Positions 16,206 to 55,417 of a stretch of DNA of 64,000 nucleotides are shown here, piece by piece. Under the pieces are notes generated by a model. That model was not told where the DNA came from and made no database searches. It saw only the letters and a list, made by a program, of their open reading frames with translations. The position numbers and the translations under genes are program-made. Source of the stretch: a virus. The first letter of the stretch is position 1. Every line of letters begins with the position of its first letter. The stretch spans positions 1 through 64,000 of IMG/VR virus record IMGVR_UViG_3300025112_000010; one strand, given 5' to 3'.

Positions 16206-16697
16206 TCAGCGGAGACAGGCTGCAAGACGTTTGACCCTACGTTTTAGGGTGTTTTCGTCGGAATTATTATCCAAAATAATATCGCAAAGATCTTTGGAAA
16301 CGGTGTTTGAGATGCCAGATTCTGGTGGTTTCCGCTCTGCAGCGTCCACCCAGATCGATAAATCGAAGAGTCCCTTCTCGCGGGCGTCGAGGAATTCTAT
16401 GCGGTTTCTTATCCCCACGTACATATCGTGTTGGGCGAAGATCTCCCGCGTGAGTCTGGAGGGGTCGTCGGCGTTGTACGCGCAGATCATGTCGAACCAT
16501 TCCTTGCGATGGTTGCCACGATCCTCGAAGGCTTCCTGTGGAGTGTTGTAGCCATACTTGACTTTTAGGGCATCGAACAGAAAGAGTTTGCAGGCGAACA
16601 TACTTGACGAATCGAAGGTTATGTCAAGTGCTTGTTCGAGCAGTTCCCCAACGGTGTCTTTGCCGTGGCGGGCGTAGCCGCAGATCATAAGTTTCAT
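16206..16697 (-). CDS. P-loop protein; dNMP-kinase-like.
   Basis: MKLMICGYARHGKDTV resembles the phage dNMP kinase P-loop (GxxxxGKDT); ATG overlaps the stop of the HD gene. Confidence 0.45.
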   Translation of the reverse strand: MKLMICGYARHGKDTVGELLEQALDITFDSSSMFACKLFLFDALKVKYGYNTPQEAFEDRGNHRKEWFDMICAYNADDPSRLTREIFAQHDMYVGIRNRIEFLDAREKGLFDLSIWVDAAERKPPESGISNTVSKDLCDIILDNNSDENTLKRRVKRLAACLR

Positions 16698-17299
16698 GCG
16701 ACCAACAGCTTTCCCCAGAAATCCAAAAAGGATGCTTCGGCTAGAGGTGGTGTGAGTACCTGCGTGGGTGACGTGTGGACGAAGGACGTTGCCATCTGGC
16801 ACCCTTCCCACTTCCATGCTCCGCTTCCCTTCATCAGCAGTGCGGCCTCTGCTCGGCAGACGGTGTTGTCGCACTCCTTGATGATCTCCCAGTCGATCTC
16901 TTTTTCATCCACGGGGAGCTTCCGAAGTATGGCATCCATCAGAAGATTTTCGACCTCTCGAAAAGCTTTCATCGAGGGGTGGTTTTTAATCGGGCGGCAC
17001 ATGTCTCCGATGTAGGCTTCGCCTGCATCATGCCAGAGAGCTGCGACCTGGGTGTCCCAATTGCCCCCGCGAAGTTTCACCTCCTGGGCAACGATCACCG
17101 AATGCTCGGCAACACTATAAAACCTCTCGCACTGCCCTCCGAAGCGGCAGAGCTTCGCTAGTGCAGAGACTATGTCGAGAAGATTCATGGTGTCAGGATC
17201 AGGGTTGAAGACGTTCAGGAATTCCCCTGAGAGAATGCTGATAATACCTTCGTCTTCGCACCCTGTTCTGTTGATCGCTAGATCATGCTTTTCAATCAT
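16694..17299 (-). CDS. HD-domain phosphohydrolase (YfbR-like 5-prime-deoxynucleotidase type).
   Basis: H...HD...D motif: AEHSVIV, LWHDAGEAYIGD. Confidence 0.7.
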   Translation of the reverse strand: MIEKHDLAINRTGCEDEGIISILSGEFLNVFNPDPDTMNLLDIVSALAKLCRFGGQCERFYSVAEHSVIVAQEVKLRGGNWDTQVAALWHDAGEAYIGDMCRPIKNHPSMKAFREVENLLMDAILRKLPVDEKEIDWEIIKECDNTVCRAEAALLMKGSGAWKWEGCQMATSFVHTSPTQVLTPPLAEASFLDFWGKLLVA

Positions 17300-18479
17300 T
17301 TGTCAAGTCCTTGTCAATCTGTTCGATGATGGCTCCGATGTGGAGCGAGTTGCGAAGGGTCTCACCGTGTTGTCGGTGGAGGGTAACCGCGCAGATGTCT
17401 CGCTTAGATCGGTAGCCATGTGAGTGGGAGTAAGTATCGCGCGGGATCAGTGTACGAAAAGATTCTATCACCTGTCCACCCACGTCTTGCCTTTTCTGGT
17501 GGTGGATGTGACCAGTGTACCAGTAGCGATGTTCGCATCGCCCAGACTGCTCTCGCTTGTCTTCTGCCATGACTTTGTAAAGTGCCTCTGGCTTGACCTT
17601 GTGCCCATGGTGAACACCGATCAAGTTGTTGCCAAATTCGTACCAGTGGAAACCATCGGGGCTAACGTCGATCTTGACTCGTGGATTCTTTTCGTAAGCC
17701 ACTTCCAGACAGAGGTTGAGCATTTGCGAAGTCTGCTCGTCATGGTTGCCGATGGCATTTATCACAGTCACCGTCTCGTGCTTCTCAAGGGCAGCATCGA
17801 TCATCCGGCGCATAATCTGGATTCCCACTCGGGCGACCTTCGCCCATCGCCCATCGACGTCCAGGGGATTCTTTCCCCGCCTCGTGACGTTCTCAGGGGT
17901 GTCAGTGTGGAACCAGTCTCCGAGGTTGCAGATGACTGCCTCAGAGGTCTTAGGGGAGGCTTCCATCAGTCGGTCGAAACCTTCCGCGAAGATCTTGTCA
18001 GCGATCTCGATGTCCCAATCCTCTTCTGCGTCCTCGTGCCAGCAGTAGAGACCAATGTGGGCATCCCCGATTGGGTAGACCACCAGCTCGTCATCGACCA
18101 TCCCCTTTTTTGTGGGGGCAAGTCGCTTAGGAAGGGGGGTGAAGTCTTGGCAGACATGTTTTGCATATTCTTGGGCGAATTCCTTTAGTCGATCCATGTC
18201 CGCTGACGATTTTACCCATTGGGCCTTGACGTTTCCGTCCTCATCGTATAGCGTTGAAGTACCCTTCACGAAGTGCGTTGACGGCACCGTGTGTGTCATG
18301 TCATGTTCAGGGCTGTGACCCTGGAGGGCTGCGCGCTTTTTGATCCGGGCTACCAACCCCCTGATAGTGGGGGCGCTGGAGCCTACCTCTTTTGCTATTT
18401 CCGCATAGCTCATTTTGTCTAGTTTTTCAATGATAAGCCGCTGCTTATCCGTATTGCAAAAATCGATTAGACCGGCCAT
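17292..18479 (-). CDS. Calcineurin-like metallophosphoesterase with an N-terminal helix-turn-helix.
   Basis: GDAHIG, GDWFH, GNHDE and GHIHH motifs; N-terminal SYAEIAKEVGSSAPTIRGLVARIKKR. Confidence 0.65.
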   Translation of the reverse strand: MAGLIDFCNTDKQRLIIEKLDKMSYAEIAKEVGSSAPTIRGLVARIKKRAALQGHSPEHDMTHTVPSTHFVKGTSTLYDEDGNVKAQWVKSSADMDRLKEFAQEYAKHVCQDFTPLPKRLAPTKKGMVDDELVVYPIGDAHIGLYCWHEDAEEDWDIEIADKIFAEGFDRLMEASPKTSEAVICNLGDWFHTDTPENVTRRGKNPLDVDGRWAKVARVGIQIMRRMIDAALEKHETVTVINAIGNHDEQTSQMLNLCLEVAYEKNPRVKIDVSPDGFHWYEFGNNLIGVHHGHKVKPEALYKVMAEDKREQSGRCEHRYWYTGHIHHQKRQDVGGQVIESFRTLIPRDTYSHSHGYRSKRDICAVTLHRQHGETLRNSLHIGAIIEQIDKDLTND

Positions 18480-18481
18480 TA

Positions 18482-19078
18482 TTACTCGTCCTCGGCAGAA
18501 GAAATTGTCGTAGGGTTTTCCAAGTCTGTCAGGTGGTTGAGGGTCTCGCCCTTCGCAAAATCTGACAACGACAGACGTATAACTTTAATTCCAAAGTCTT
18601 TCAGTTCAGCCCTCAGCCTTTTGCCAAGGTTGGTCGCAGTCTTCCGAGAATCGCCTACAAGCTCTTCGTAGGTGAGGTTAGAGATAACCTGGGAGATAGC
18701 CGCAATTGCGAAGTCTTCGGCTGTGTCATCGTAGTCGTAGCACTGCGTAAGCAACTGCTCGACATCTGAGATTTCATAGATAAGAACCCCACGAAGATGT
18801 AGGACAAGTCCGTCCTTGGTTGTTAGGTTCTGCTTCGGCAGTCGTTTGGTCTGCCGCTTGATGGGAATGACCGTGGGTATGTCTGTGACTACCGGCCAAT
18901 ACCAGTGGATACCTGTTCGACCAAAGACCCAAGTACCGTTGTCATGCTTGACAACTCGCACCTTGGAACCCCATCGCCACTTTACACCTTCCTGCGTTGT
19001 GTTCACTATCACGAAGTGTGGGATGAACATCACGAGAAAATCGTAGAGTCGCGTCAGGACTGGGAACAGCTCTCCCAT
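18482..19078 (-). CDS. SPFH/band-7 domain protein.
   Basis: N-terminal membrane anchor plus QNLTTKDGLVLHLRGVLIYEISD, a band-7 signature pattern. Confidence 0.55.
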   Translation of the reverse strand: MGELFPVLTRLYDFLVMFIPHFVIVNTTQEGVKWRWGSKVRVVKHDNGTWVFGRTGIHWYWPVVTDIPTVIPIKRQTKRLPKQNLTTKDGLVLHLRGVLIYEISDVEQLLTQCYDYDDTAEDFAIAAISQVISNLTYEELVGDSRKTATNLGKRLRAELKDFGIKVIRLSLSDFAKGETLNHLTDLENPTTISSAEDE

Positions 19079-21090: not shown

Positions 21091-21324
21091 CTAGTCCTTG
21101 ACGCTGGGATCTCCCAGGCCAAATTGGAAGTTGGTTGAGCGGCTCCCTCCGTACTCTCTGTGCTTGGCTATTTCTGCCCGGCACTTAGGGTGCATCCGAT
21201 CTCCCCGGTTCTTTGAGTTGAGCTTGGGCTCCCCGCAGACTGGACAAATTCTAGTCATCACGGTGGGACCTTCATGTAGCGTTTCCATCTCCGGCTTGCG
21301 GAGGAACTTATCTAGCAGGCTCAC
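21091..21324 (-). CDS. Small zinc-ribbon protein (CPVCGEP...HPKC).
   Basis: ORF track; GTG start after GGAGAA that lies inside the palindromic motif. Confidence 0.5.
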   Translation of the reverse strand: MSLLDKFLRKPEMETLHEGPTVMTRICPVCGEPKLNSKNRGDRMHPKCRAEIAKHREYGGSRSTNFQFGLGDPSVKD

Positions 21325-21397: not shown

Positions 21398-23923
21398 TTA
21401 CGAAATGTTGCGGATCAGGCGAGCCATGAATTTCCGCATGTTGGTAATCAGGTTCGGCAGGTCCTCGAAGTGGACGACGTTCTCTTTGCCGTACATCTTG
21501 TCGGAGTTACGAACCCCGTCGATTGCGATCTGCAAAACGTGGAAGCCTTCCTTGCGGCACTGGTCAACAGCCAACTTGGTTGCGTCCGTAGCCGACATCC
21601 CACCGAAGTGGCCGCAGGGCTCACCGTCGCTGACAACGATCAGCAACTTCTCGAACTTGGGATTGCAGAACTTCTTCATCTCGTGGCGGGCACAGTTGAT
21701 CGCCACATAATCGTAGTTTCCGCTGCCGGGATCGTAGGCCGCGATGCTATGCTTGTGCGGGTTGTTCTTCCCGTACAGGTATGTGAACATCGTATCGTTG
21801 TCCCCACCGCCGCGACCCCACCCACCGGTTGTGTGGCTGTAGATCTCATGCTCGATGCTAGGCAAGCCAACTAGGCACTCGTGGAGAAGGACACCGATGC
21901 ACATTGCGTACTCGGCTTTCCCCATGCTGCTCATGCTGGGGTTGTCATAGCAACTTCCCATAGATCCGCTCTCGTCAAGCAGGATGCCCACAGAGAGCCC
22001 TCGGGCTGACTTTGTGACTTCCTGCTTGCAGATTCGCAAGGACCGTTTCTTCAAGCCAGGGTTAGCCCTATGCTTGAGTTGAGCCTCTTTGATCATGTGA
22101 AGCTTGCGTCGGTCAATTCGCCCGTTTGGCTGCTCGGTGATGTTGAAGTTTCGGCTACCTGTTCGGTAAGAGAAGACCTTCTTCATCCGGTTGATATGCG
22201 GCTGCATCAGAGCGAGGTAATTCTCGTACTTCGCTGTCAAGGCAGGCGTAGGTTGCGGATGGGAGATCACAGTCCCGGCAGGAGACGAACCCTTCTCGGG
22301 TTGCCAATCTGGTCCTCGCTCGACTCGGTTCGCAGTTTGCTTACCCGACTCTTCGGATTGCTTGGCGTCCATCGGTGAGGAAACATCGTCGAGTTTCTTC
22401 ATCATCTGGATCATGTCCTGCATGGTAAAGCTGCCGTCCATGATGCCCGCCTCGACCAAGTCAGCGAGTTCCTTGTTGAGCTTCTTCTGAGTCTTCTCGA
22501 ACTTTTTGATAGCTCGTTTCTTCTCGCTGTCCTGTGAGGAGTCACCCGACTTCTCAGCATCTTTGTAATCCTCCAAAGCAGACTGGTGTTGCTTGACTAG
22601 ATCGTCGATGCTTTTCTGGGTAGCTTCCTTCGCTTGGGCGTTGCTACGAGCCTTACGCTCTGCGTCTAGGCGATCCTGGATCTCTTCCGAGGTAGGACCA
22701 GCTTTTTGCTCCTGGGGGCTCTGCTGGCTCTGCTTGCCGCCTTGCTGTTGCTCTCCACCTTGGGAAGGTGCAGCGTCTTGGCCTTGGGCCTCGGTGCCAT
22801 CGTCGTTGGAGGCTTGACCATCACCTTGGGAGGCTTGGCCTTGACCGCTCTGACCTTGACCGCTCTGACTCTCGCCACCTTGACCACCTTGACCCTGACC
22901 CTCTTGGCCTTGACCTTCCCCGTCAGAATCTTGACCACCCTCACCGGCTTCACCTTCGCCAGCTTCGCCTTCAGGTTGCCCCTCGGGTTGTCCTTCTGGT
23001 TGCTCGCCTTGGACCTTGCTCTTAATGTCTTCGTCAGACATGTCCAGGAGGTCGTCGTATTCCTTCAGGAGGAACTTGTAGTAATCGTGGATCTTCTGAC
23101 CGTATTCAATCACCTCGTCCTCTGTGCGAGGGAGGTGCGGGAACATGCCACGAAGCTCGTCGAAGACGCAGTGGTTGGTGAGAGTCTTCCACTCTTTAAT
23201 CTCTTTGGTAAGCAGGTATCCGCATCGGATAAAACCAAAGAAGATAGCGTTGATGCGGCTGACCTCGGGCTGCTCCTCACCCCAGTGGGCGATGCTGCTA
23301 CCGAACTCTCGCTTCTCGAAGAAGATCCGCTTGATCCCATGGTAGTAGGGAGCAAAACCAGGGGAGTGCAACTTCCCTGCGGCTTCGATACGCTCGTCTT
23401 CAAACAGACCCGTGAACATCGAAAGAACTGGCTCGGTGCCATCCCACTGCTTCATCTTTAGGAAGAGCTTGCGGGTCTCGCGGATGTGGTCTGCTTCATG
23501 GAGACCTAAGCCAAGGTAGAGATCGAGAACCTCCTCGCTGGAGGCAATCTCGAACGGCACTAGGTCCATCAGGATGAAGGGCTGCTTCCACTTTCCAATG
23601 TCGCGGAAAGATGCTGCGGCCCCTCCGATCTCTCCGAGGTGCGCGAATTCAACTGGGCAGTTTCGGGGGAGACCATGGACACGTAGAAGGTTGACGACGG
23701 CGTTGCGAATCATCGCAAGATCCATCACCAACTTGCTTTCGTTTTTGGGGTCAAGCTTGTACTGCTTGCGTGACCACTTGCTGGAGAACTGGTTGCTCTC
23801 TGTTGCTTGGTCTTCGTTGTAGAAGTTGCCAGCAGCTTCGTCGAAGAGATCGCCGCGACCGTCGCGTTGATCCTTGATTTTGTCGAGTGTGTCGAACCAG
23901 CTTCGTTTCTGCTTTTTCGCCAT
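21398..23923 (-). CDS. vWA-domain protein, CobT-like, with a long acidic Gly/Gln/Glu-rich low-complexity linker.
   Basis: C-terminal MIDAS motif ILLDESGSMG and vWA fold pattern; low-complexity region about 22690..23010; its neighbour is the AAA+ partner. Confidence 0.75.
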   Translation of the reverse strand: MAKKQKRSWFDTLDKIKDQRDGRGDLFDEAAGNFYNEDQATESNQFSSKWSRKQYKLDPKNESKLVMDLAMIRNAVVNLLRVHGLPRNCPVEFAHLGEIGGAAASFRDIGKWKQPFILMDLVPFEIASSEEVLDLYLGLGLHEADHIRETRKLFLKMKQWDGTEPVLSMFTGLFEDERIEAAGKLHSPGFAPYYHGIKRIFFEKREFGSSIAHWGEEQPEVSRINAIFFGFIRCGYLLTKEIKEWKTLTNHCVFDELRGMFPHLPRTEDEVIEYGQKIHDYYKFLLKEYDDLLDMSDEDIKSKVQGEQPEGQPEGQPEGEAGEGEAGEGGQDSDGEGQGQEGQGQGGQGGESQSGQGQSGQGQASQGDGQASNDDGTEAQGQDAAPSQGGEQQQGGKQSQQSPQEQKAGPTSEEIQDRLDAERKARSNAQAKEATQKSIDDLVKQHQSALEDYKDAEKSGDSSQDSEKKRAIKKFEKTQKKLNKELADLVEAGIMDGSFTMQDMIQMMKKLDDVSSPMDAKQSEESGKQTANRVERGPDWQPEKGSSPAGTVISHPQPTPALTAKYENYLALMQPHINRMKKVFSYRTGSRNFNITEQPNGRIDRRKLHMIKEAQLKHRANPGLKKRSLRICKQEVTKSARGLSVGILLDESGSMGSCYDNPSMSSMGKAEYAMCIGVLLHECLVGLPSIEHEIYSHTTGGWGRGGGDNDTMFTYLYGKNNPHKHSIAAYDPGSGNYDYVAINCARHEMKKFCNPKFEKLLIVVSDGEPCGHFGGMSATDATKLAVDQCRKEGFHVLQIAIDGVRNSDKMYGKENVVHFEDLPNLITNMRKFMARLIRNIS

Positions 23924-23962
23924 TTGCAGAGTTCCTTATGTTGGGGAGTGTTTCTCAGATTC

Positions 23963-24484
23963 TTAAAATGTACCAGAGTCGGAAGAATACGTCAAGGGGT
24001 CCTTGAGAATAAATCCATCTTCCTTGGAAAAAAGGGGTTTCGCCTTTAGAGTATGCTCACATTCGTCGCTACTGCTGAACCTGTATTGAAAGCATTGGCA
24101 GGAGGGCTTGCCTCTTTCGGTGAGTTCCAGGGTTCGGATTAGTCGCACGTCCCCCGCAATACACTTGGAGGCTATCACAAAGGTCTTGGAATCACCCTTT
24201 TTGGTTTTGGTCCTCTTGACTTGGTAGACGGTGCAGTCCTCGGCAGGGACCTTGAAGAAGGGGTTACCCTGCCCATGGTTTACCCGCTCGGCTAAGTCTG
24301 TGAGGACTTGGGACTCATAACCCTCTTGGGTCTGCACCCTCGTCTTGCCGCAGGTAACTTTGACTTCGGACGTCCATCCGGGCTGATCTAGCACTAAGGC
24401 ATAGTCCGTAGTGTCAGGAAAAGCCCCGTCCGTAACTTGGAGACGAGAGCCGGGAAACTTAGCTACTAATTCTTTTCGATTCAT
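23963..24484 (-). CDS. SWIM-type zinc-finger protein.
   Basis: SCQCFQYRF...DECEHT (CxC...CxH); start at MNRKELV. Confidence 0.5.
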   Translation of the reverse strand: MNRKELVAKFPGSRLQVTDGAFPDTTDYALVLDQPGWTSEVKVTCGKTRVQTQEGYESQVLTDLAERVNHGQGNPFFKVPAEDCTVYQVKRTKTKKGDSKTFVIASKCIAGDVRLIRTLELTERGKPSCQCFQYRFSSSDECEHTLKAKPLFSKEDGFILKDPLTYSSDSGTF

Positions 24485-24583
24485 GGTAATCGTCCTTGTG
24501 CGAGGGGGTGTTTTGATGTGTGTTAAATAAAGAGGGAGAACCGGCAGGAGACCAATCGAGACCGATCCCCCCTCCACCGATTT

Positions 24584-26116
24584 TTACTTACGTTTCTTGG
24601 CACCACCTTTGCGTTGCACCAACTGTCGGAGCTGGGTCTGCTCGGAGGAGTCACCCCCGTCAGCCTCGAACTTGTTGATAACGGAACCGGACAGAGCCAT
24701 CTCGTAAGGCATCCCTCGACCGACAGCAGTGCCTGCCGCGAGAAGCATACGAGTCGAGATCGACTTGGACATGTCGCCTTCCTCATGGAGCTTACGTTGC
24801 TCCCCAGCAAGGTCTACGAGCTGGTCTGCGGATGCAGGTTTCAGTCCAGGGCATCGCTTCAGGAGAATGTCCTTTTCCTTATCCCTTGGTGCCCAAGTCA
24901 TGTGGATGTGGAAGTCGAATCGCTCGATCAGAGCAATGTCCAAAGCTTCCGTTCCAGTGTACTCCATCCCGATGTTCGCCGTGGCGAAGAACGAGGTACG
25001 CTCATGCTTGTGGATGACAGGGCAGTTCTCGTCTTCGTCGATGGCGAGGTAGCCTTGGTTGTCCAGGAGAGGCAACAGAATGTTCTGGGCTGCTCCAGTC
25101 TGATCGCGGCTGATTTCGTCCAGGAGAATCATCCCCGGCTTCTGGATCGCTTGGGCGAACCGAGACAGGTTATGGATCGTGCCGTCCACGTTGGCAGTCG
25201 TGTTGCCAATGATCGCACTTCGCGGATCTTGCATGGCACCGAAGTTGACCGCAGTCAGCGGGGGCATTCCACAGAGTCGTGAGACGTAGTAGGCAAGCTC
25301 CGACTTACCGCAACCGGAAGGACCAGTCACTAGGACTCGACAACCATGCAAGGCACAGTAGACAGCCGTTAGCCAGTTCTCCGGAGTGACGAAGAAGGTG
25401 GAAGGGGCGGGTCGTTTTACCGAGGCCCAATCCTCTGGCTTCACCAACTCGTAACTCTCTTCGTCTTGCTGCTCGGTCGTCTCGGCGTAGGTGGCGAAGT
25501 CAACCGCAAGAGTCTCCTCTTCCGAAACAGTCTCCACCACTATCGTGACCTTGGTCACAGGGTCAACCTTCTTACCGGCTTGCTTGACCTGTGTGGACTC
25601 CAACGACTTTGAAGAGTCGCTTGATTTCTCACACTCGGCGTGGATACGAGCAGGGTTGATGTACCGAGGGTTGTCGGGATCGACCTTAACCTTGGGCATG
25701 TTGCCCATCGTCAAGAAGTCCAACAGAGCGGAGGCTCCCAGATCGGGAAGCTCAGGGTGGACAGCGTGAACTACTGCACCTTTGCCCAGCAGCATAATGT
25801 GGGTGAGTGTTTCTTCACCCGTCCACTCGATGGGGGTCTCACTGTCGAAGAGGACAGGAACAGGCTTGCTTCGCGAGCCTTTTTCTTTACGCTCGAAGCC
25901 TTTATCCCAGACCGTTACATCGTCGGTGATGCAGGTGGTATGGCGGCAGACGCTGTCGTCTGCGAAACGGTACTCGGTGCAGTTGCACGAGAGCTTCCCG
26001 TCATCGGCGTTGCGTTCGACAACGGAAGTCGAGCGGACTTTGTTGTCAGTGATTTGGTAGAACTTGAACTTGTTTGCTTCAGTCTGCAGAGCGATGTTGT
26101 AAGTAGTGGTCGCCAT
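24584..26116 (-). CDS. MoxR/CobS-like AAA+ ATPase with an N-terminal SWIM-type zinc finger.
   Basis: Walker A VLVTGPSGCGKS and Walker B MILLDEIS; N-terminal SCNCTEYRF...SVCRHT. Confidence 0.8.
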   Translation of the reverse strand: MATTTYNIALQTEANKFKFYQITDNKVRSTSVVERNADDGKLSCNCTEYRFADDSVCRHTTCITDDVTVWDKGFERKEKGSRSKPVPVLFDSETPIEWTGEETLTHIMLLGKGAVVHAVHPELPDLGASALLDFLTMGNMPKVKVDPDNPRYINPARIHAECEKSSDSSKSLESTQVKQAGKKVDPVTKVTIVVETVSEEETLAVDFATYAETTEQQDEESYELVKPEDWASVKRPAPSTFFVTPENWLTAVYCALHGCRVLVTGPSGCGKSELAYYVSRLCGMPPLTAVNFGAMQDPRSAIIGNTTANVDGTIHNLSRFAQAIQKPGMILLDEISRDQTGAAQNILLPLLDNQGYLAIDEDENCPVIHKHERTSFFATANIGMEYTGTEALDIALIERFDFHIHMTWAPRDKEKDILLKRCPGLKPASADQLVDLAGEQRKLHEEGDMSKSISTRMLLAAGTAVGRGMPYEMALSGSVINKFEADGGDSSEQTQLRQLVQRKGGAKKRK

Positions 26117-26190
26117 GGTAGTTGGTCTCCTGGGTAAAGTGGGGTTCGTTTCCGTCGATGTCTAAAACCTACCAGAGTCGGAAGTTTATG

Positions 26191-26673
26191 TCAAACGGTG
26201 TTTTCAAGATTTCTTGGGTTTGCTTCCAGAAAGATGCCGATAGTGCCTTGTTTCCGGGGTAAAACGACCGTAAAGAATCCAAAAATAACATCCTCGGGTA
26301 CATTCTTTATCGGTATGTGCATGTCAATAAGTTTAGTCCAATCTGCATCTTCTGGGATTGGAGGTGCGTCTGCTGCAATGAAGTCTTCGAGTACAATGTG
26401 GACCGTCTCTAGAATGCACTCCGCGTTTTCGCCGGAGACTCCATCCACAAAAGAACAGTCGCGTTGATCTAGTAGCTTCACATGGGAGCAGACCTTCTTA
26501 TTGAAGAATGCTCGACAGGTGCAGGTCCTGTCTTTGATAACGTGGATGTCTTCGCGGTTAACGATTCCATCTCTTACCTTTAACTTCTCGCAGAGGACTT
26601 TGTCCGACTTCTGTTTGAAAAGGTAGAAAGGTTTGTTGCTTATCTCTGCCACGAGTAGGGCTAAGTCATTCAT
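26191..26673 (-). CDS. SWIM-type zinc-finger protein.
   Basis: CTCRAFFNKKVCSHV; 4-nt overlap with the upstream gene. Confidence 0.5.
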   Translation of the reverse strand: MNDLALLVAEISNKPFYLFKQKSDKVLCEKLKVRDGIVNREDIHVIKDRTCTCRAFFNKKVCSHVKLLDQRDCSFVDGVSGENAECILETVHIVLEDFIAADAPPIPEDADWTKLIDMHIPIKNVPEDVIFGFFTVVLPRKQGTIGIFLEANPRNLENTV

Positions 26674-27038
26674 CTTGCTACTCCCCGCCAATTCCAAAGA
26701 CCCTCAAATCCTACGTTTTTATAAAGTCTCTTGTATGGAATTAGAATTAGAACTTCCTCTGTACGTTGGGGGAACCAAGGTCCAGGTTTCTGCTCTTGGT
26801 AATCCCTAATCGTCTTGGCAACGTGGGTTTCCCCCCAACGAAGATGTTCGGGGGACGTTGCTTGTGAGCCTTGGAAGAAACCTCTGCCCTGCTTTGCATA
26901 CTTGACAAAGACGAAGGACTCATTCCAGGAGGAGATACTTCCGCTCTGGGGCTCGGGGTGTTTTTTAGTAGGAGGGATGTAATACACCTTCCTCCCTACG
27001 TCTGTGTAGTTCAACTCCTTTCCCTCGATCTCTATCAC
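26670..27038 (-). CDS. Hypothetical protein (122 aa).
   Basis: ORF track. Confidence 0.5.
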   Translation of the reverse strand: MIEIEGKELNYTDVGRKVYYIPPTKKHPEPQSGSISSWNESFVFVKYAKQGRGFFQGSQATSPEHLRWGETHVAKTIRDYQEQKPGPWFPQRTEEVLILIPYKRLYKNVGFEGLWNWRGVAR

Positions 27039-27426: not shown

Positions 27427-28338
27427 TTACTCGACAGAGGCAGTCTCGGCTGCGTTGTCAAGTTCCTGGATCTTCTTGATGTGATCCTGGGTTTCCTGGG
27501 TGTTGACCACTTCCAACTTGCAGTTGTAGGCAGTCTCGACCATGGCGATGGCTTGATCCAATCGCTGGAAGTAACCGGTTGAGCCACCTCCCGCTCCAGA
27601 GAGGAAGTCCGCAGCAAGCATGTTCAGTTGCTCGCCTGGGGCATCGCTCGCACAGATCGTACCAGCTTCGTCAAGAGCCTGCTTGACCGTCTCAGCAATG
27701 GACTGGGAGACGATAAAGGACATCTTGATTGGCTTGTCGTCCAACCCCGTCTCGGGGACGGTGACAGGATCTGGCTTTGCCAACTCTTCGACAGCCTCTT
27801 CGGGCTCAAGATCGTCTCGTCGCATCGCACGAACCATCGCACGAATGTCCAAGATAATCATGTTCTTCGTGATGTCCAGCAGGGACATGACGTTGGTCTG
27901 ATCGACGACCGGGAGCAGCTCCTTGGCAATCGTCCAGCGTAGCTCGCGGAGAGCTTCGAGGGGGATCGTCAAGTCGATGACGAACTTCTTATAGATCTGG
28001 GCGAGCAGATTCGCCTTGGTCGATTTGATCTTGAGTTCACGCTCGGCGTAATCCTCAAAGTTCTTGTAGCTGTCGCCAGCTTCGTCTTGCCAGTCCTTCC
28101 AGTAGCCGTTGTTGCGGCACTCATAGAGGGTCTCAGCCAGAACCATCTGGAGCTTGTCGCTTCCAGCTTGGGCAGCGGTTGAGATCTGACGGAAGGTATC
28201 CCGTCGCTCTTCGGGGGTCATGTCTTCCCGAATCATCGGGCAGAACACAGTGGATGTTTCGTCCCAAATACCCATCGCAGTCGTCTCGACCGTGACTAGC
28301 TCTGTGGACTCAACATCGGGGGTAGCATCTTGACTCAT
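27427..28338 (-). CDS. Hypothetical protein (303 aa).
   Basis: ORF track; RBS AGGAGG. Confidence 0.55.
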   Translation of the reverse strand: MSQDATPDVESTELVTVETTAMGIWDETSTVFCPMIREDMTPEERRDTFRQISTAAQAGSDKLQMVLAETLYECRNNGYWKDWQDEAGDSYKNFEDYAERELKIKSTKANLLAQIYKKFVIDLTIPLEALRELRWTIAKELLPVVDQTNVMSLLDITKNMIILDIRAMVRAMRRDDLEPEEAVEELAKPDPVTVPETGLDDKPIKMSFIVSQSIAETVKQALDEAGTICASDAPGEQLNMLAADFLSGAGGGSTGYFQRLDQAIAMVETAYNCKLEVVNTQETQDHIKKIQELDNAAETASVE

Positions 28339-51003: not shown

Positions 51004-51398
51004 TACACACCCCCGCAGGCGAGGGCAGAATATTCAGTGGTGACAGATATAACCTGGAACATCCCAGAGACCGAGAAGATCCTTCCCCTAACAGTAGGAG
51101 AATCCAATTGGACAAATTGAACTTGAAGGTCATCATCCCAGTAACCGGTGAATTGGTACTCGGTAAGAGACGCGGTGTTATAAAGGTCATAGAGGACTTT
51201 GAATTCGGCGGGTGTTGCAACTTGGATAGTCCAAGACAGTGTACCATCTCCATGCACAATTAAATCATCCGCTTCCTGAAGAATTACCGCACCTGCTGTG
51301 GGTGTGGTCGTCATTCTCTTTCGGGGAACGTATAAGCTGTAGCTAAAGGATAGAGGTAAATTTACCGCATTCAACGTAGCTTGGTAAGCCATTGCCAT
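51003..51398 (-). CDS. Hypothetical tail-associated protein.
   Basis: ORF track; start and stop coupled to the tape measure gene. Confidence 0.5.
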   Translation of the reverse strand: MAMAYQATLNAVNLPLSFSYSLYVPRKRMTTTPTAGAVILQEADDLIVHGDGTLSWTIQVATPAEFKVLYDLYNTASLTEYQFTGYWDDDLQVQFVQLDSPTVRGRIFSVSGMFQVISVTTEYSALACGGV

Positions 51399-54300
51399 TA
51401 GACTTCTCCTACAGACATGTTAGCACTTGAGATTGCCTTTCCGATGTGACGAGTCACGTTATCCATATCTACGTTGTTGTTGATGTCCATTCGGACTGTG
51501 CGGTTATCGTTGTTATTGGTAGTTGTACCCCCGCCTCCTCCACCAGAAGGAGCAGTACCTCCCAGTCCCATGTAATGGGAAGGTGCAAGTCGTCCTAGTT
51601 GTGGACCCTTCTTCGCTAAGGTGTTAACCATTCTATCAATACCACCAGAGGCTACCTCTACATTCTGGTTCCAAATGTCCACAAGAGAGGGACTGTGGTG
51701 TGTTGTAGGCTTGGATTCATGCTTAATTGCTGCCATAGTAGCTTGTACTGCCGCAATCATCCTCTGAGATTCAACCGTCCAACCTGCAAGGAACGCATTG
51801 ACCCAGTGGACTGGTGCAGCTCGGAAGTCGTTCATCACTTGGATCATGCTGGCTCGTACAGCCAACTGCATCTGGTGGACACGTTTCTGCACCTCATCGA
51901 TTTTGGCTTGGACTATAGCAGGATCACCACCCGCACCTCCTACAGCTCCCGCGACTTGCGCCTCCTGGGCTCTCTTCTGCGCGAACTGATTTACGAGTTG
52001 ACCTCGGGTTCGCATACGCTCAATAACTGCGTCCAGGCGTTTGACCTCGGTGTCATTACCATGACCTAAAGCCTTAGCCCGTCGCTGCTCAAGTCTTTCC
52101 AGGTTTTGCTGGAAGCGTACTGCTGTGTCGGCAGCTCGCATAGCCAGAGCTTCTTGCTGGAAACGTATGTAGTAGAGACCTTGGTAAAGAAGTATCAATT
52201 TCTGGACACTGTCCACCTGCTTGAGGAGAGCATCGGTAACTCGCTTCTCAAGGTCCGCTTCGTTCTTTGCTACGTCAGGCTTCTTACCAAGTTTCTTATC
52301 GGCATCTTTAGCCATAGCCTCTTGGGCTTTTTGGATACGATCTCGGGCTTGGGCTGCCAATAGCTCTTCGTTTTTGCGAGCCTGCTCTCCTACGATTCCA
52401 AGCTTTTTCATCTTGGCTCGCTCTTGTTCAAGGATCTTTTCGTTCTCTAGCTTGGCAGCTTCTACACGATTCCCTTTGCGTTTGGCCTCGTCGATCTTCA
52501 ACTGGCGGTTAAAATCTTTACGGGACTTCTCCAGTTCCACCTTCTTCTTCTTCTCGTCTGCTATCTCCTTATCCTTTTTTTCCTTCTCTTTCTTTGCAGC
52601 TTCGTCTAAGTCCTCTAACCTTTGTCTTTCATTATCTGCCATTAAGTCTTGTACTTCCGCAACCTGCTGATAAGTCCTCTCCATCTCGTCTAGAAGCTTA
52701 TTAAATTCTTTTTGACGCTCTACCTCATCTTCAATTGCATCCAACTCCTCTAACCTCTTCGTATAGCTTAGTTGGATTATTCGTAGCTCCTCCAGTCGCA
52801 AAGCTAACTTCTCCTTTATGGAGTCTTTCTGGTCATTTATTTTAGACGTCTCCTTGTCAAGCCCTTCCAAGTCTGCGTCGTGGATCTCCTTGACAAGGTC
52901 TGCATAATCCTCTGCTCCTTCGGCTAAGGACTCCTGGGCTGCTACAAGTTCCTGCTGGGCGAGTCTCTGATCAACCCAAGCCGCTGTTATCTCCTCGGAG
53001 GTTAAGACCCCATCATTCCGCATCTGCCTAACGAACTCTAGATACTCTTGGTTATGGTCATTGACGACCTTTAAATCATGTACATAACCTCTTAACCGTT
53101 CTTTCTCAGCCTCATGCGCCTCTGCGGCCTTTTGGCGGGCGGCAGCATCATCCCCCGCCATGTTCATCTCCGTCAGCTTCAAGGCTACTAATTCTTCTTG
53201 TAATTTTATACGACGCTCATGCGCCTCAATGTGCTCCTCAACAGTTCGTTCGGTGTCTTCAACTACAATTTTTAAAACCTTTGCAGTTCTAAGGGTCCTA
53301 ACACCTACTTCGTATTGTTTCTCTCTGGTGGCAAGATCCGCTTTTAGCGATGTCTTTACGTCTCCATCCTCCAGCCTACTTATCGTCCTCTTCAGAGTTA
53401 TCATCGCAGCCATCTGCTCTTCTAGGCTTGCGGTTAGACCCTCAACAGACTTTCCACCTTCATCCCAACTCTTCGTCAACTCATTAAGTTTTGTCCCTGT
53501 CAGAGATGCGTTCTTTCCTAGATCATCATAGAAGGCGGCAGCATCTCTAACCTCTTTGCCCATCCTCTTGGCACCCTCTGAGTTCTGCATCCAGTCAAGC
53601 TGATTCATCTGTTCAGCAGACATTCCCATGCTGGCAGCCATATCCGCAAAGGATTGACCTACCTTTTTGGAGTCGTCCGCTAGAAGACCAAACCAAATTA
53701 AGAGCCTCTTAACCAAGCCTATTAGAAAACCTACAGCCATCGCCAAACCCCAAATGGGAGATGTGAGCAAAACTATAGAGCTTATTAAGGTTCCCCCGAG
53801 AATAGCTGTGAGTCCTACAAGAATGGCTGTGAGGTATTTTACAACTACGGCGACCCCTTCTATAACAACGTAGAAACCTTCCCACCCTCCTACAGCCCAA
53901 AGTACAGCCTTCATCACCGTTGCCATGACGGTGCCTACGACCTTCAGACCCAAGTATAGACCTTCTAAGAAAGCCTTACCTATAGCCCACACAGCCTTCG
54001 CCACTACGTTCAGCACCTCGGTAAAGAACTCAAAGTCTGCAACCATTACGGCTATAATCGCAACCAAGGGGGAGAGGAGTACAAGTAGCGCTGCAGCGAC
54101 TATAAGAAAGGCTTTCCAGAATACAACTACCAACGTGATGGCTGGGATCAATGCGCCCAGGGTTGTCAACAAAGCCCCTGCTACTCCAAGGACAACAGAG
54201 AGTGCTGCCGCTGCTGCTCCAAAAATTGCAATAGACTTTACAAAGGATGCCACTACGTCCTTATTAGCTTTAGCCCACTCATTGAAGGCTCTCACCATAC

Positions 54301-55417
54301 CCGTTATCTTGTCTATTGCTTTCTGTAAAACGCCTTGGAAGGTTTGGAAGATTGTGATGCCTAAGCCTTGGACAATCGATTTAAGCTCTGTGAATGAGCC
54401 TATGACAGAGTCCATGCGGATCTCAGCCATTGTTCTTGCGGCACCTGTAGCATCTTCTATGTATCCCTGAATCTTCTTCATCGCATCAGAACCTTGGTTC
54501 TTCAGCGCAAGCATTTGTCTACCGGCACGAACACCAAAGATCATCAAAGTGTCAGTGGCACTGATGTTGGCGTCTTCAAAAGTTTCAACAATCTCCGTAA
54601 GAGATTTGATTTCAGGGTTGATGTCTTGTATCGTGAGTCCATATTTCCCTAGAGTCTCCTGAGCTTTCTTTGTCCCTTTGGAGGCTTGTGATAATACTTG
54701 ACCAAGTCCCGCACCTGACACAGAGCCTTTGATGCCTGCATTGGCTAGAACACCAAGAGCTGCTGCAGTTTCTTCAAGAGATTGACCAAAGGCTTCTGCG
54801 ATTGGTGCAGATAGTTGGAAAGAGAACCCCAGCTTTTCAACAGAGGTGTTAGTGTTTGCTGCAGTAACGGCGATAACGTCAGTAACACGAGCTAGATTAG
54901 AAGCCTCGATGTTAAAGGCTCGCATCGTATCTACTGCGATTTCAGAGGCTCGTGCAAGTTCAAGGTTACCTGCTGCAGCAAGATTAAGAACCTCGCCTAC
55001 ACCAGCTAATACCTCCTCAGTGTTCAGACCCGCTAACGCCATGAACTTCATGGCTTCTGCAACCTCTGTTGCTGTAAAGCGAGTAGTCTCTCCTAACTCT
55101 TGGGCCTTTGCTGTGAGTTTGGCGAAGTTCGCGGCAGCTTCTGTGCTTGCCTCACTGGCATCCTTCATCACCGCTTTGACATCTTGCATCGCCTGTTGGA
55201 ATTTACCACCCAGGAGTACAATGGGCGTCAGAGCAGCAGCGACCACTAGAGAGAAATTACGAAGACCTCGACTTGCGCTTGTAAGGGCAGAGCCTACCTG
55301 CGTGGCTGCTGCCCCTAACTTCTGCATACTTGCTTGAACGGTTGTTGCACCGTTTTGAATCTGCCGTACCCCCGTCATGGAGATGTGCAGAATCGCTTGA
55401 CCTAATTTACTCGCCAT
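51398..55417 (-). CDS. Tail tape measure protein (1339 aa).
   Basis: Length, extended coiled coils, a central cluster of hydrophobic helices, and position after the chaperone pair. Confidence 0.85.
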   Translation of the reverse strand: MASKLGQAILHISMTGVRQIQNGATTVQASMQKLGAAATQVGSALTSASRGLRNFSLVVAAALTPIVLLGGKFQQAMQDVKAVMKDASEASTEAAANFAKLTAKAQELGETTRFTATEVAEAMKFMALAGLNTEEVLAGVGEVLNLAAAGNLELARASEIAVDTMRAFNIEASNLARVTDVIAVTAANTNTSVEKLGFSFQLSAPIAEAFGQSLEETAAALGVLANAGIKGSVSGAGLGQVLSQASKGTKKAQETLGKYGLTIQDINPEIKSLTEIVETFEDANISATDTLMIFGVRAGRQMLALKNQGSDAMKKIQGYIEDATGAARTMAEIRMDSVIGSFTELKSIVQGLGITIFQTFQGVLQKAIDKITGMVRAFNEWAKANKDVVASFVKSIAIFGAAAAALSVVLGVAGALLTTLGALIPAITLVVVFWKAFLIVAAALLVLLSPLVAIIAVMVADFEFFTEVLNVVAKAVWAIGKAFLEGLYLGLKVVGTVMATVMKAVLWAVGGWEGFYVVIEGVAVVVKYLTAILVGLTAILGGTLISSIVLLTSPIWGLAMAVGFLIGLVKRLLIWFGLLADDSKKVGQSFADMAASMGMSAEQMNQLDWMQNSEGAKRMGKEVRDAAAFYDDLGKNASLTGTKLNELTKSWDEGGKSVEGLTASLEEQMAAMITLKRTISRLEDGDVKTSLKADLATREKQYEVGVRTLRTAKVLKIVVEDTERTVEEHIEAHERRIKLQEELVALKLTEMNMAGDDAAARQKAAEAHEAEKERLRGYVHDLKVVNDHNQEYLEFVRQMRNDGVLTSEEITAAWVDQRLAQQELVAAQESLAEGAEDYADLVKEIHDADLEGLDKETSKINDQKDSIKEKLALRLEELRIIQLSYTKRLEELDAIEDEVERQKEFNKLLDEMERTYQQVAEVQDLMADNERQRLEDLDEAAKKEKEKKDKEIADEKKKKVELEKSRKDFNRQLKIDEAKRKGNRVEAAKLENEKILEQERAKMKKLGIVGEQARKNEELLAAQARDRIQKAQEAMAKDADKKLGKKPDVAKNEADLEKRVTDALLKQVDSVQKLILLYQGLYYIRFQQEALAMRAADTAVRFQQNLERLEQRRAKALGHGNDTEVKRLDAVIERMRTRGQLVNQFAQKRAQEAQVAGAVGGAGGDPAIVQAKIDEVQKRVHQMQLAVRASMIQVMNDFRAAPVHWVNAFLAGWTVESQRMIAAVQATMAAIKHESKPTTHHSPSLVDIWNQNVEVASGGIDRMVNTLAKKGPQLGRLAPSHYMGLGGTAPSGGGGGGTTTNNNDNRTVRMDINNNVDMDNVTRHIGKAISSANMSVGEV

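What the first reader, a model, noticed from the sequence alone, without database searches (positions are those of the whole stretch)
21398..26697. MoxR/CobS-like AAA+ and vWA (CobT-like) pair embedded among three SWIM-type zinc-finger proteins
- An 841-aa vWA protein has a C-terminal MIDAS motif (DESGSMG) and a ~100-aa Gly/Gln/Glu-rich acidic linker.
- Next to it sits a 510-aa AAA+ ATPase (Walker A GPSGCGKS, Walker B LLDEIS). Its N-terminus carries a CxC...CxH motif (SCNCTEYRF...VCRHT).
- The same motif recurs in the two flanking small proteins (SCQCFQYRF...ECEHT; CTCRAFF...VCSHV).

CobS/CobT-like pairs are known in phages. The triplication of a SWIM-like finger across three consecutive genes, one of them fused to the ATPase, is not a standard description. 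It suggests a nucleic-acid-sensing or chaperone module.
Basis: partly seen in the sequence, partly recalled or inferred. Interest (0 to 1): 0.7.

Follow-up and report, generated by a model that had tools for sequence, protein, structure and literature searches.

The report
SWIM-fingered phage MoxR ATPase/peptidase-vWA module
An uncultivated tailed phage carries, inside its DNA replication/recombination genes, a known kind of ATP-driven protein-remodelling pair (MoxR ATPase plus a peptidase-vWA adaptor) that has been decorated with SWIM zinc fingers, a variant I did not find described and whose target is unknown.

Summary
Four co-directional minus-strand genes encode a small SWIM protein, a SWIM-fused MoxR-class AAA+ ATPase, a second small SWIM protein, and an 841-aa protein with an acidic Gly/Gln/Glu linker and a C-terminal vWA/MIDAS domain.

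The N-terminus of the vWA protein is a zincin metallopeptidase-like domain with invariant HExxH and EDERIE motifs.

The ATPase is closer to CbbQ/NorQ/Midasin than to CobS. The vWA domain is of the CobT/NorD type. The pair is not a CobS/CobT orthologue.

- **Conserved parts:** in 11 of 12 distinct related viral lineages the order is RusA, a ~300-aa gene, small SWIM protein, SWIM-ATPase, zincin-vWA, always within the replication/recombination block.
- **Variable part:** the middle SWIM gene occurs only in this phage and one near-identical contig. Its finger is a paralogue of the ATPase finger.

MoxR plus metallopeptidase-vWA pairs in phages were already described (Iyer et al. 2021). The SWIM fusion and the SWIM partner were not found in the searchable literature, in GenBank phages, or in 185,579 species-representative genomes.

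I infer an ATP-driven remodeller with a protease-like adaptor, targeted by the SWIM fingers, probably to a DNA-associated substrate. This is a new variant of a known kind and of moderate interest.

The parts
26191..26673 (-). SWIM-A: a small stand-alone SWIM protein, 160 aa from the ATG at 26673 (the mechanical ORF starts at the TTG at 26697). The finger CTCRAFFNKKVCSH lies at 26482-26523. The C-terminal ~90 aa are an uncharacterised domain.
   Evidence: ORF; motif position. Homologues sit immediately upstream of the ATPase in 11 of 12 distinct related lineages. Y25, C59, C61, C70 and H72 are invariant in alignment A3. Pfam SWIM matches below threshold (14.6 bits against 19.6) and matches 5 of 11 members.
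24584..26116 (-). SWIM-fused MoxR-class AAA+ ATPase, 510 aa. Residues 1-65 form a beta-rich SWIM module (finger CNCTEYRFADDSVCRH at 25940-25987). Residues 66-~200 form an alpha/beta domain with no detectable relatives. Residues ~235-510 are the AAA_5 core plus the CbbQ_C lid (24584-25414).
   Evidence: Pfam AAA_5 E 1.4e-12, CbbQ_C E 1e-9, PHROG 249 E 1.7e-25. The profile hits Midasin (2e-27), CbbQ (5e-22), NorQ (6e-18) and CobS (2e-10) in the PDB. C44/C46/C57/H59, Walker A/B and the conserved ATANxG and STRML motifs (which I assign to sensor 1 and sensor 2 from general AAA+ knowledge) are invariant. The AF2 model of residues 1-235 has pLDDT 87 and pTM 0.78. 48 of the top 79 homologue clusters carry the motif about 200 aa upstream of Walker A.
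23963..24484 (-). SWIM-B: a lineage-specific small protein, 173 aa from the ATG at 24484 (alternative GTG at 24577). The N-terminal ~130 aa are beta-rich. The C-terminal SWIM finger CQCFQYRFSSSDECEH lies at 24053-24100 and is a paralogue of the ATPase N-terminal finger.
   Evidence: BLASTP against the ATPase N-terminus gives E 6e-6. hhalign against the ATPase family profile gives probability 88%, E 3e-6. A search of 1.84 billion representatives finds one close relative only. It is absent from that slot in other relatives. The finger region is a recombination patch relative to L006.
21398..23923 (-). Zincin-linker-vWA adaptor protein, 841 aa.
   Evidence: ORF. Homologues follow the ATPase in all related loci. 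See the sub-parts below.
23024..23746 (-). Zincin (gluzincin-like) metallopeptidase-like domain, residues ~60-300. HEADH is at 23486-23500 and EDERIE at 23384-23401.
22244..23023 (-). Linker. Residues 301-415 are Gly/Gln/Glu-rich, acidic and low-complexity (net charge -18). Residues 416-560 are a highly charged segment whose structure was not modelled.
   Evidence: Composition. Short imperfect DNA repeats. The length and sequence of this segment vary among homologues. It aligns only with the acidic linker of solved CobT.
21401..22126 (-). C-terminal vWA domain of the CobT/NorD type, residues ~600-841. MIDAS DESGS is at 21962-21976 and SDGEP at residues 765-769.
   Evidence: D650, S652, G653, S654, S765, D766, G767 and P769 are invariant. 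The profile hits CobT 9uka_G (1.9e-10) and NorD 9qhd_G (1.5e-7). VWA_2, VWA and CobT_C are hit by 10, 9 and 7 of 13 members.
27427..28338 (-). Conserved 303-aa neighbour of unknown function. It may or may not belong to the module.
   Evidence: tblastn hits at 21-37% identity lie upstream of the module in all 11 SWIM-bearing loci tested and in none of the SWIM-less loci. In 10 of the 11 the hit sits just upstream of SWIM-A (or of the ATPase in L018); in L012 it lies about 2.5 kb further upstream. There is no Pfam hit. It hits PHROG 17202, of unknown function. The co-occurrence may simply reflect shared ancestry of these phages.

Best explanation
This is a phage-encoded MoxR-type AAA+ remodelling machine with a protease-like adaptor, equipped with SWIM zinc fingers as targeting modules.

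**Shown:**
- The ATPase is a CbbQ/NorQ-clade MoxR protein with intact catalytic motifs.
- Its partner combines an intact-looking zincin site (HExxH plus a downstream Glu helix), a long acidic disordered linker, and a CobT/NorD-type vWA domain with a complete MIDAS.
- Each ATPase protomer carries an N-terminal CxC...CxH finger.
- A free SWIM protein is a conserved upstream partner.
- The whole set sits in the replication/recombination gene block of a clade of uncultivated tailed phages.

**Inferred by analogy with NorQ/NorD, CbbQ/CbbO and CobS/CobT:**
- The ATPase forms a hexamer.
- The vWA protein docks on it through the vWA domain and its C-terminus.
- The MIDAS grips an acidic residue of a target protein.
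- ATP hydrolysis pulls on and twists the adaptor's linker.

**Further inference:**
- The zincin domain cleaves, or is switched on to cleave, the captured target.
- The SWIM fingers (six on the ring plus SWIM-A) bring the machine to its substrate.
- Given the conserved position between RusA/UvsX/Cas4-like exonuclease and an Mre11-like exonuclease, the substrate is most likely a DNA-bound protein or a DNA structure met during phage replication or recombination.
- SWIM-B is a lineage-specific accessory that presents a copy of the ATPase-type finger. It probably modulates or redirects targeting.
For: **Identity of the ATPase.** Pfam AAA_5 and CbbQ_C score above their cut-offs. The PDB profile hits Midasin, CbbQ, NorQ and CobS. 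The catalytic residues are invariant.

**Identity of the adaptor.**
- The vWA domain hits solved CobT and NorD and has an invariant MIDAS.
- HExxH, T and EDERIE are invariant down to about 17% identity.

**SWIM.**
- The ligand residues are invariant.
- SWIM is the only recurrent Pfam family.
- In the model, CxC lies at the end of a strand and CxH at the start of a helix, in a region of pLDDT above 90.
- The motif is far beyond chance expectation.

**Conserved module.** SWIM-A, SWIM-ATPase and zincin-vWA occur in the same order in loci L003, L005, L007-L009, L011, L012, L014, L015 and L017.

**Link to DNA metabolism.**
- The window order is DnaB, primase, PolA, helicase, UvsX-like, Cas4-like exonuclease, RusA, then the module, then an Mre11-like exonuclease.
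- Distant SWIM-less phages (Bacteroides phage BS162P1, L021) also keep the ATPase/zincin-vWA pair beside PolA, a UvsX-like gene and a Cas4-like exonuclease.

**Structural neighbours of the zincin.** These include the DNA-dependent proteases Spartan/SprT and Wss1, and also IrrE, ArdC and CapP.
Against: - No experiment exists on any member, and the host is unknown.
- The gene position in a replication block is shared by descent within one phage clade, plus two distant phages. It is weak evidence for a DNA-linked target.
- SWIM domains can mediate protein-protein contacts rather than DNA binding (my own knowledge of MEKK1, Shu2/SWS1 and ZSWIM8).
- Iyer et al. proposed a virion-assembly role for the analogous pair in T4-like jumbo phages (PMC7824862).
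- One SWIM-ATPase lineage (L018) lacks SWIM-A.
Confidence: 0.4

Rival explanations
1. Host-takeover or anti-defence device. The machine is the same, but the target is a host protein (a defence factor, nucleoid protein or other early obstacle) that is captured by the MIDAS/SWIM modules and is unfolded and cleaved early in infection.
For: - The module sits among early/middle genes.
- The slot between the ATPase and vWA genes varies between relatives. SWIM-B's finger has been swapped by recombination between two otherwise near-identical phages, which is typical of host-interaction modules.
- The structural neighbours include CapP, IrrE and ArdC, which act in conflict or stress systems.
- The ATPase has weak hits to anti-phage ATPases IetA/IteA.
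Against: - The PADLOC and NCBIfam hits are far below any threshold and cover only the P-loop region.
- The core three genes are conserved at 30-40% identity across a whole clade. That fits a housekeeping phage function better than an arms-race gene.
- The SWIM-B patch has dN/dS of about 0.3, so it is not under positive selection.
Confidence: 0.2
2. The SWIM fingers are purely architectural. They are zinc-stabilised protein-protein interfaces that hold SWIM-A, the ATPase ring and the adaptor together or regulate ring assembly, with no role in recognising DNA or substrate.
For: - Known SWIM domains often mediate protein contacts (my own knowledge of Shu2/SWS1 with Rad51 paralogues, and MEKK1).
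- SWIM-A and the fused finger co-occur almost perfectly.
- The finger packs into a larger, confidently modelled beta-rich domain rather than standing free.
Against: - It does not explain why a third, paralogous finger on a different scaffold (SWIM-B) is added in one lineage.
- SWIM-less relatives of the ATPase/vWA pair evidently assemble without these fingers.
Confidence: 0.25
3. Virion assembly or maturation chaperone-protease. This was proposed for MoxR plus metallopeptidase-vWA pairs in T4-like jumbo phages and shown for a MoxR/vWA pair in tail development of Acidianus two-tailed virus.
For: The published proposal and precedent (PMC7824862). The two-gene architecture is the same.
Against: - In this window the structural genes (tape measure at 51398-55417 and its neighbours) are more than 25 kb away.
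- In every relative the module lies inside the replication/recombination block.
- SWIM fingers have no known role in capsid or tail assembly.
Confidence: 0.12
4. Auxiliary cobaltochelatase CobS/CobT that hijacks host CobN to boost cobalamin synthesis. This is the usual annotation of such phage pairs.
For: - PHROG 249 is labelled 'porphyrin biosynthesis'.
- The vWA domain is most similar to CobT among solved structures.
- The literature treats phage cobST clusters this way (PMC8651126).
Against: - CobS TIGR01650 scores 17 bits against a cut-off of 558.55.
- CbbQ, NorQ and Midasin are much closer than CobS.
- The adaptor's N-domain is a zincin with no detectable similarity to CobT's N-terminal part, even though full-length CobT is in the PDB set searched.
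- No cobalamin or B12-dependent genes were found among the 20 larger window ORFs screened against PHROGs.
- The SWIM additions have no counterpart in chelatases.
Confidence: 0.03

Closest known systems
Phage MoxR AAA+ / metallopeptidase-vWA pair (Iyer, Anantharaman, Krishnan, Burroughs & Aravind 2021, Viruses 13:63). It is often annotated cobS/cobT or 'peptidase' in cyanophages and other phages.
   Same: A two-gene core of a MoxR-class ATPase followed by a protein with an N-terminal HExxH peptidase-like domain and a C-terminal vWA/MIDAS domain. SWIM-less versions of the same core occur in Bacteroides phage BS162P1 and in Planctomycetes and Bacteroidales MAG contigs.
   Different: Here the ATPase carries a ~230-aa N-terminal extension with a SWIM finger, a stand-alone SWIM protein is a conserved third gene, and this lineage adds a fourth gene (SWIM-B). 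The location is the replication/recombination block, not a structural block. Direct homology to the jumbo-phage examples (ASV44729, ASV44728) was not tested.
NorQ/NorD, CbbQ/CbbO and CobS/CobT (MoxR AAA+ with a vWA adaptor)
   Same: An AAA_5 plus CbbQ_C ATPase. The adaptor has a C-terminal MIDAS vWA domain behind a long linker. The working principle probably matches that seen in NorQD cryo-EM structures (PMC13036017).
   Different: The adaptor's N-terminal domain is a zincin and not the N-domains of NorD, CbbO or CobT. There is no metalloenzyme client gene nearby. The ATPase has a SWIM N-domain. No NCBIfam equivalog threshold is met.
E. coli yehLMPQ-type clusters (AAA_5 MoxR, DUF5682, VWA_CoxE, SWIM protein)
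   Same: A SWIM-domain protein is encoded with a MoxR ATPase and a vWA protein. SWIM plus MoxR plus vWA is therefore not without precedent.
   Different: SWIM is never fused to the ATPase there. The vWA is CoxE-type, not CobT/NorD-type. DUF5682 is absent here, and there is no zincin there. Only generic AAA+ similarity is seen (hhalign 91.6% over the core). The SWIM-A profile versus YehQ is not significant. The function of yehLMPQ is itself unknown.
SPRTN/Wss1 with p97/Cdc48 (eukaryotic DNA-protein-crosslink proteases working with an AAA+ unfoldase)
   Different: There is no sequence homology beyond the zincin fold. The AAA+ class differs (MoxR versus classic-clade Cdc48). Coupling here is through a vWA/MIDAS adaptor. 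This is an analogy, not membership.

Membership tests
MoxR-class AAA+ ATPase, CbbQ/NorQ/CobS/GvpN group (Pfam AAA_5 + CbbQ_C) | AAA_5 core and CbbQ_C lid score above the Pfam gathering scores | tested here: met
   AAA_5 48.2 bits (cut-off 22) and CbbQ_C 38.9 bits (cut-off 20.6). The PDB profile hits CbbQ at 5e-22 and NorQ at 6e-18.
MoxR-class AAA+ ATPase, CbbQ/NorQ/CobS/GvpN group (Pfam AAA_5 + CbbQ_C) | Intact Walker A and B, sensor and arginine residues | tested here: met
   GPSGCGKS at 265 and LLDE at 331. K271, D333, E334, N381, R399 and R456 are invariant in 22 homologues.
MoxR-class AAA+ ATPase, CbbQ/NorQ/CobS/GvpN group (Pfam AAA_5 + CbbQ_C) | An adjacent gene encodes a vWA/MIDAS partner | tested here: met
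   A vWA protein lies downstream in the window and in all related loci.
Cobaltochelatase CobS/CobT | The ATPase meets the CobS equivalog model TIGR01650 | tested here: not met
   17.1 bits against a cut-off of 558.55. CobS is only the tenth-ranked solved relative.
Cobaltochelatase CobS/CobT | The partner has the CobT architecture, including the CobT N-terminal region | tested here: not met
   Only the linker and the vWA domain align with solved CobT. The N-domain profile finds no CobT even at E <= 10, and the domain folds as a zincin.
Cobaltochelatase CobS/CobT | Cobalt insertion together with CobN | not testable with these tools
   This needs biochemistry. No cobalamin-related gene was seen among the 20 larger window ORFs screened against PHROGs.
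SWIM zinc finger (Pfam PF04434) | A CxC-x(n)-CxH signature that is conserved in homologues | tested here: met
   All three window proteins carry it. The four ligands are invariant in alignments A3, A6 and A8.
SWIM zinc finger (Pfam PF04434) | A score above the Pfam gathering threshold | tested here: inconclusive
   Window SWIM-A scores 14.6 bits against 19.6. The window ATPase and SWIM-B have no hit. At family level SWIM is the only recurrent family: 12 of 29 segments (best E 2.1e-4) and 5 of 11 members. The model has only 38 positions.
SWIM zinc finger (Pfam PF04434) | A zinc-knuckle-plus-helix fold with four ligands around one Zn | tested here: inconclusive
   In the AF2 model CxC lies at the end of strand 42-44 and CxH at the start of helix 58-64, with pLDDT above 90.
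Zincin (gluzincin-like) metallopeptidase fold | HExxH on a helix plus a third ligand Glu on the following helix | tested here: met
   HEADH is at 142-146 on helix 129-149, and EDERIE at 175-180 on helix 165-186. Both are invariant in 34 sequences.
Zincin (gluzincin-like) metallopeptidase fold | Fold similarity to solved zincins | tested here: met
Zincin (gluzincin-like) metallopeptidase fold | Peptidase activity | not testable with these tools
   This needs an enzyme assay.
E. coli YehLMPQ-type MoxR/vWA/SWIM cluster | DUF5682 protein and a CoxE-type vWA alongside AAA_5 and SWIM | tested here: not met
   The yeh proteins hit DUF5682 and VWA_CoxE. No DUF5682 is present here, and VWA_CoxE is hit by 1 of 13 members only.
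Known anti-phage defence systems (PADLOC) | A significant match to a defence-system protein model | tested here: not met
   Only weak P-loop-region hits to IetA (4.3e-6, 24 bits) and others. There is nothing for the other three proteins.

The most novel reading that the evidence does not exclude
A virus-specific, SWIM-guided AAA+ protease. The SWIM fingers on the MoxR ring and on SWIM-A recognise DNA structures or DNA-bound proteins at phage replication/recombination intermediates. The MIDAS captures the protein, and the ATPase-activated zincin removes it. This would be a bacteriophage functional analogue of the eukaryotic SPRTN/Wss1 with p97/Cdc48 pathway that clears protein roadblocks from DNA, built from entirely different parts.
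Probability: 0.15. Interest if true: 0.75.

Novelty: new variant of a known kind. Interest (0 to 1): 0.5.

Why it matters
MoxR/vWA pairs are among the most widespread AAA+ systems whose clients are mostly unknown. The phage versions are routinely mis-annotated as cobalamin-synthesis genes.

This module shows that the phage adaptor is really a zincin-vWA fusion. One viral clade has added zinc fingers to both the motor and a partner protein, inside its replication/recombination gene block.

If the fingers target the machine to DNA-bound substrates, phages would have an ATP-driven protease for clearing or processing proteins on DNA. The architecture also offers mutable handles (finger, MIDAS, HExxH, Walker B) for finding the client of a MoxR system.

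If the target turns out to be a virion or host protein, the finding is still a useful correction of annotation, but it would be ordinary.

Tried and rejected
- **Full-length vWA homologue search:** it returned only three hits because the low-complexity linker swamped the word index. I repeated it with an N-domain alignment.
- **DNA search against phages:** a DNA-level search of GenBank phages found nothing. Protein searches with the ATPase N-terminal 235 aa and with SWIM-A found nothing even at E <= 1.
- **Zinc-site geometry:** the model coordinates were not in the sandbox, so the geometry could not be measured.
- **Family assignment:** NCBIfam and PADLOC gave no assignment.
- **Promoter and terminator scan:** matches were at chance level and gave no operon boundaries.
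- **Positive selection on the SWIM-B finger:** rejected. Synonymous changes are equally elevated (16 synonymous and 18 non-synonymous, dN/dS about 0.3). The patch is a recombination tract.
- **CobS/CobT reading:** rejected on equivalog score and N-domain fold.
- **YehLMPQ membership:** rejected.
- **Species-representative genomes:** a scan of 185,579 species-representative genomes found no SWIM-fused relative, only SWIM-less pairs.
- **tRNA scan:** none in the window.

Full report
**1. The observation**

The four ORFs exist as described, all on the minus strand:
- 26191-26697: small protein SWIM-A.
- 24584-26116: 510-aa ATPase.
- 23963-24577: small protein SWIM-B.
- 21398-23923: 841-aa vWA protein.

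The likely true starts are later than the mechanical ORF starts. SWIM-A probably starts at the ATG at 26673, in an ATGA overlap with the upstream gene. SWIM-B probably starts at the ATG at 24484, which is preceded by AAGGA. The only close relative found by a search of 1.84 billion representatives is a 165-aa protein that begins at that ATG.

Walker A (GPSGCGKS, 265), Walker B (LLDE, 331), MIDAS (DESGS, 650) and the linker are as quoted. The linker spans residues 301-415, is 27% Gly, 24% Gln and 14% Glu, and has net charge -18.

The pattern CxC-x(6-14)-CxH occurs four times in the six-frame translation of the whole window. Three of these are in frame in these three adjacent genes. Shuffled ORFs give 0.028 on average.

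**2. What the parts are**

*The ATPase.*
- It scores above Pfam thresholds for AAA_5 and the CbbQ/NirQ/NorQ C-terminal lid.
- A 22-sequence family profile finds Midasin AAA modules (2e-27), CbbQ (5e-22), NorQ (6e-18) and, more weakly, CobS (2e-10) among solved structures.
- It does not reach any NCBIfam equivalog. CobS scores 17 bits against 558, and GvpN 30 bits against 267.

*The vWA protein.*
- Pfam misses it when the window protein is scanned alone.
- Ten of 13 family members hit VWA_2 and seven hit CobT_C.
- The family profile hits solved CobT (1.9e-10) and NorD (1.5e-7) over the linker and vWA part.
- DxSGS and SDGxP are invariant.

- HExxH (142-146), T150 and EDERIE (175-180) are invariant in 34 sequences down to 16-21% identity.
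- The AF2 model (pLDDT 80, pTM 0.80) has the zincin topology.
- The N-domain profile has no sequence match to CobT or NorD, although both are in the PDB set.

*The fingers.*
- C44/C46/C57/H59 are invariant in 35 ATPase homologues.
- C59/C61/C70/H72 are invariant in 11 SWIM-A homologues at 15-21% identity.
- SWIM is the only Pfam family that recurs when the segments are scanned singly: 12 of 29 (best E 2.1e-4) and 5 of 11.
- The fused-type and SWIM-A-type finger profiles match each other (hhalign 81%, E 1.2e-5).
- SWIM-B's finger matches the ATPase N-terminal profile (88%, E 3e-6; BLASTP E 6e-6). It shares the C-x-C-x-x-[YF]-R-F signature, so it is a paralogue of the fused finger.
- The AF2 model of ATPase residues 1-235 is confident (pLDDT 87). 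It puts CxC at the end of a strand and CxH at the start of a helix, inside a beta-rich module followed by an alpha/beta domain.

**3. Relatives and neighbourhood**

The ATPase has many metagenomic homologues of about 490 aa at 31-41% identity over 95-99% of its length. Of the top 79 clusters, 48 carry the finger about 200 residues upstream of Walker A.

In contigs fetched from ENA, JGI, Logan and IMG/VR, the order is RusA, a ~300-400-aa gene, SWIM-A, SWIM-ATPase, zincin-vWA. This recurs in loci L003, L005, L007, L008, L009, L011, L012, L014, L015 and L017. In L015 the finger has a longer spacer. L018 has the fused finger but no SWIM-A.

The slot between the ATPase and vWA genes is variable. 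It is empty or holds a 58-aa ORF in L003, and holds an unrelated 275-aa gene in L005. SWIM-B occupies it only in the window and in the near-identical contig L006.

The wider block is syntenic across the clade: PolA, helicase, UvsX-like recombinase, Cas4-like exonuclease, RusA. In the window, DnaB and primase lie on the far side of that block from the module, and an Mre11-like exonuclease, an SPFH protein and an HD-domain protein lie on the other side of the module. The tape measure gene is more than 25 kb away.

More distant loci keep the ATPase plus HExxH/MIDAS protein without any SWIM. These include Bacteroides phage BS162P1, L019-L021, and Planctomycetes and Bacteroidales MAG contigs. In BS162P1 and L021 the pair again sits beside PolA, a UvsX-like gene and a Cas4-like exonuclease.

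No GenBank phage matches the SWIM N-domain or SWIM-A. No SWIM-fused relative was found in the 185,579-species genome set.

**4. How it most likely works**

*Shown:* the domain identities, the intact catalytic-looking motifs, the conserved three-gene core, and its genomic position.

*Inferred from the NorQ/NorD, CbbQ/CbbO and CobS/CobT paradigm:* the ATPase forms a hexamer that binds one adaptor through the vWA domain and its C-terminus. The MIDAS grips the client, and ATP hydrolysis strains the adaptor's linker. For NorQD this is now visualised (PMC13036017).

*Specific to this system, and inferred:*
- The adaptor's zincin domain provides proteolysis of the captured client, or is activated by the pull on the linker.
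- The SWIM fingers act as targeting modules. There are six on the ring and one on SWIM-A, plus SWIM-B in this lineage.
- The recurrent placement among recombination and repair genes, even in SWIM-less distant phages, points to a DNA-associated client. So do the zincin's structural neighbours, which include DNA-dependent proteases.

I put about 0.85 on the molecular identities, about 0.4 on the remodeller/protease-with-SWIM-targeting model as a whole, and about 0.15 on the specific 'DNA-roadblock protease' reading.

*Rivals:* a host-takeover or anti-defence target (0.2), purely architectural fingers (0.25), virion assembly as proposed by Iyer et al. (0.12), and cobaltochelatase (0.03).

**5. 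Comparison with what is known**

- The MoxR plus metallopeptidase-vWA pair in phages has been described computationally for T4-like jumbo phages and proposed to act in virion assembly (PMC7824862).
- Such pairs are widely called cobST. Liu et al. note that cyanophage 'cobT' is often annotated as a peptidase (PMC8651126).
- E. coli yehLMPQ shows that a SWIM protein can accompany a MoxR/vWA pair in bacteria, though with different vWA and accessory families.
- Full-text searches for SWIM together with MoxR and vWA, with von Willebrand and AAA, or with phage and ATPase found no description of a SWIM-MoxR fusion.

The finding is therefore a new variant of a known kind. It has the known core, plus a previously undescribed fusion and partner that appear confined to viral contigs.

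**6. Side observation**

Between the window and L006 the ATPase differs by 24 synonymous and 0 non-synonymous changes. SWIM-B codons 1-129 are identical. SWIM-B codons 130-196, which hold the finger, carry 16 synonymous and 18 non-synonymous changes. This is a short recombination tract that swaps the finger, not positive selection.

**7. Verdict**

The module is real, conserved and mis-served by the CobS/CobT label. Its novelty lies in the SWIM decoration and the replication-block context. The function remains inferred. Interest is 0.5.

Noticed in passing
window 24000-24199 (SWIM-B codons 130-196) versus L006 9927-10130: This is a sharp divergence hot spot between two otherwise 97%-identical phage contigs, with 34 differences in 200 nt. 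There are 16 synonymous and 18 non-synonymous changes. The rest of SWIM-B is identical and the ATPase has only synonymous changes. It looks like a short recombination tract that swaps the SWIM finger.
   Followed up: yes
window 27427-28338 (-): A 303-aa protein of unknown function (PHROG 17202, no Pfam hit) has tblastn hits upstream of the module in all 11 SWIM-bearing loci tested and in none of the SWIM-less ones; in 10 of the 11 the hit sits just upstream of SWIM-A (or of the ATPase in L018). It might be a fifth component, or it might just reflect clade synteny.
   Followed up: partly
window 26670-26673: There is an ATGA overlap between the stop codon of the 122-aa upstream ORF (26670-27038) and the probable ATG of SWIM-A. 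This suggests translational coupling. The 122-aa ORF has no detectable homologues in the related loci.
   Followed up: partly
window 21091-21324 (-): A 77-aa protein immediately downstream of the vWA gene carries a CPVC...HPKC zinc-ribbon-like motif. It is not conserved in relatives and has no Pfam hit.
   Followed up: partly
window 23963-24484, SWIM-B residues 40-112: The N-terminal beta-rich part of SWIM-B has weak similarity to repeat units of large surface proteins (InlB B-repeat/Flg_new_2 and Ig-like repeats; E 2e-9 to 1e-4). Pfam itself does not call it.
   Followed up: partly
window 16694-19078 (-): Downstream of the module the phage encodes an SPFH/Band_7 protein (18482-19078), an Mre11/SbcD-like exonuclease (17292-18479) and an HD-domain YfbR-like 5'-deoxynucleotidase (16694-17299). 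An SPFH protein in a phage replication region is unusual.
   Followed up: no
L001 (Bacteroides phage BS162P1) and L021: Distant SWIM-less phages still place the MoxR/zincin-vWA pair next to PolA, a UvsX-like recombinase and a Cas4-like exonuclease. The association with DNA metabolism genes is therefore older than the SWIM additions.
   Followed up: partly
L026 and L027 (Planctomycetes MAG contigs); P0042 (Gimesia maris): The closest cellular relatives of the ATPase core (39-49% identity) are planctomycete. In L026 and L027 they are followed by an HExxH/MIDAS protein without SWIM. This could hint at the host range or origin of the module, or these loci could be prophages.
   Followed up: no
L002 (Microcystis phage Mel-JY01, 4170-5852): A 560-aa AAA protein has 38% identity to the ATPase core. 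It has a different ~270-aa N-terminal extension without a SWIM motif, and no obvious vWA gene next to it. This shows that the N-terminal slot of this ATPase clade accepts different domains.
   Followed up: no
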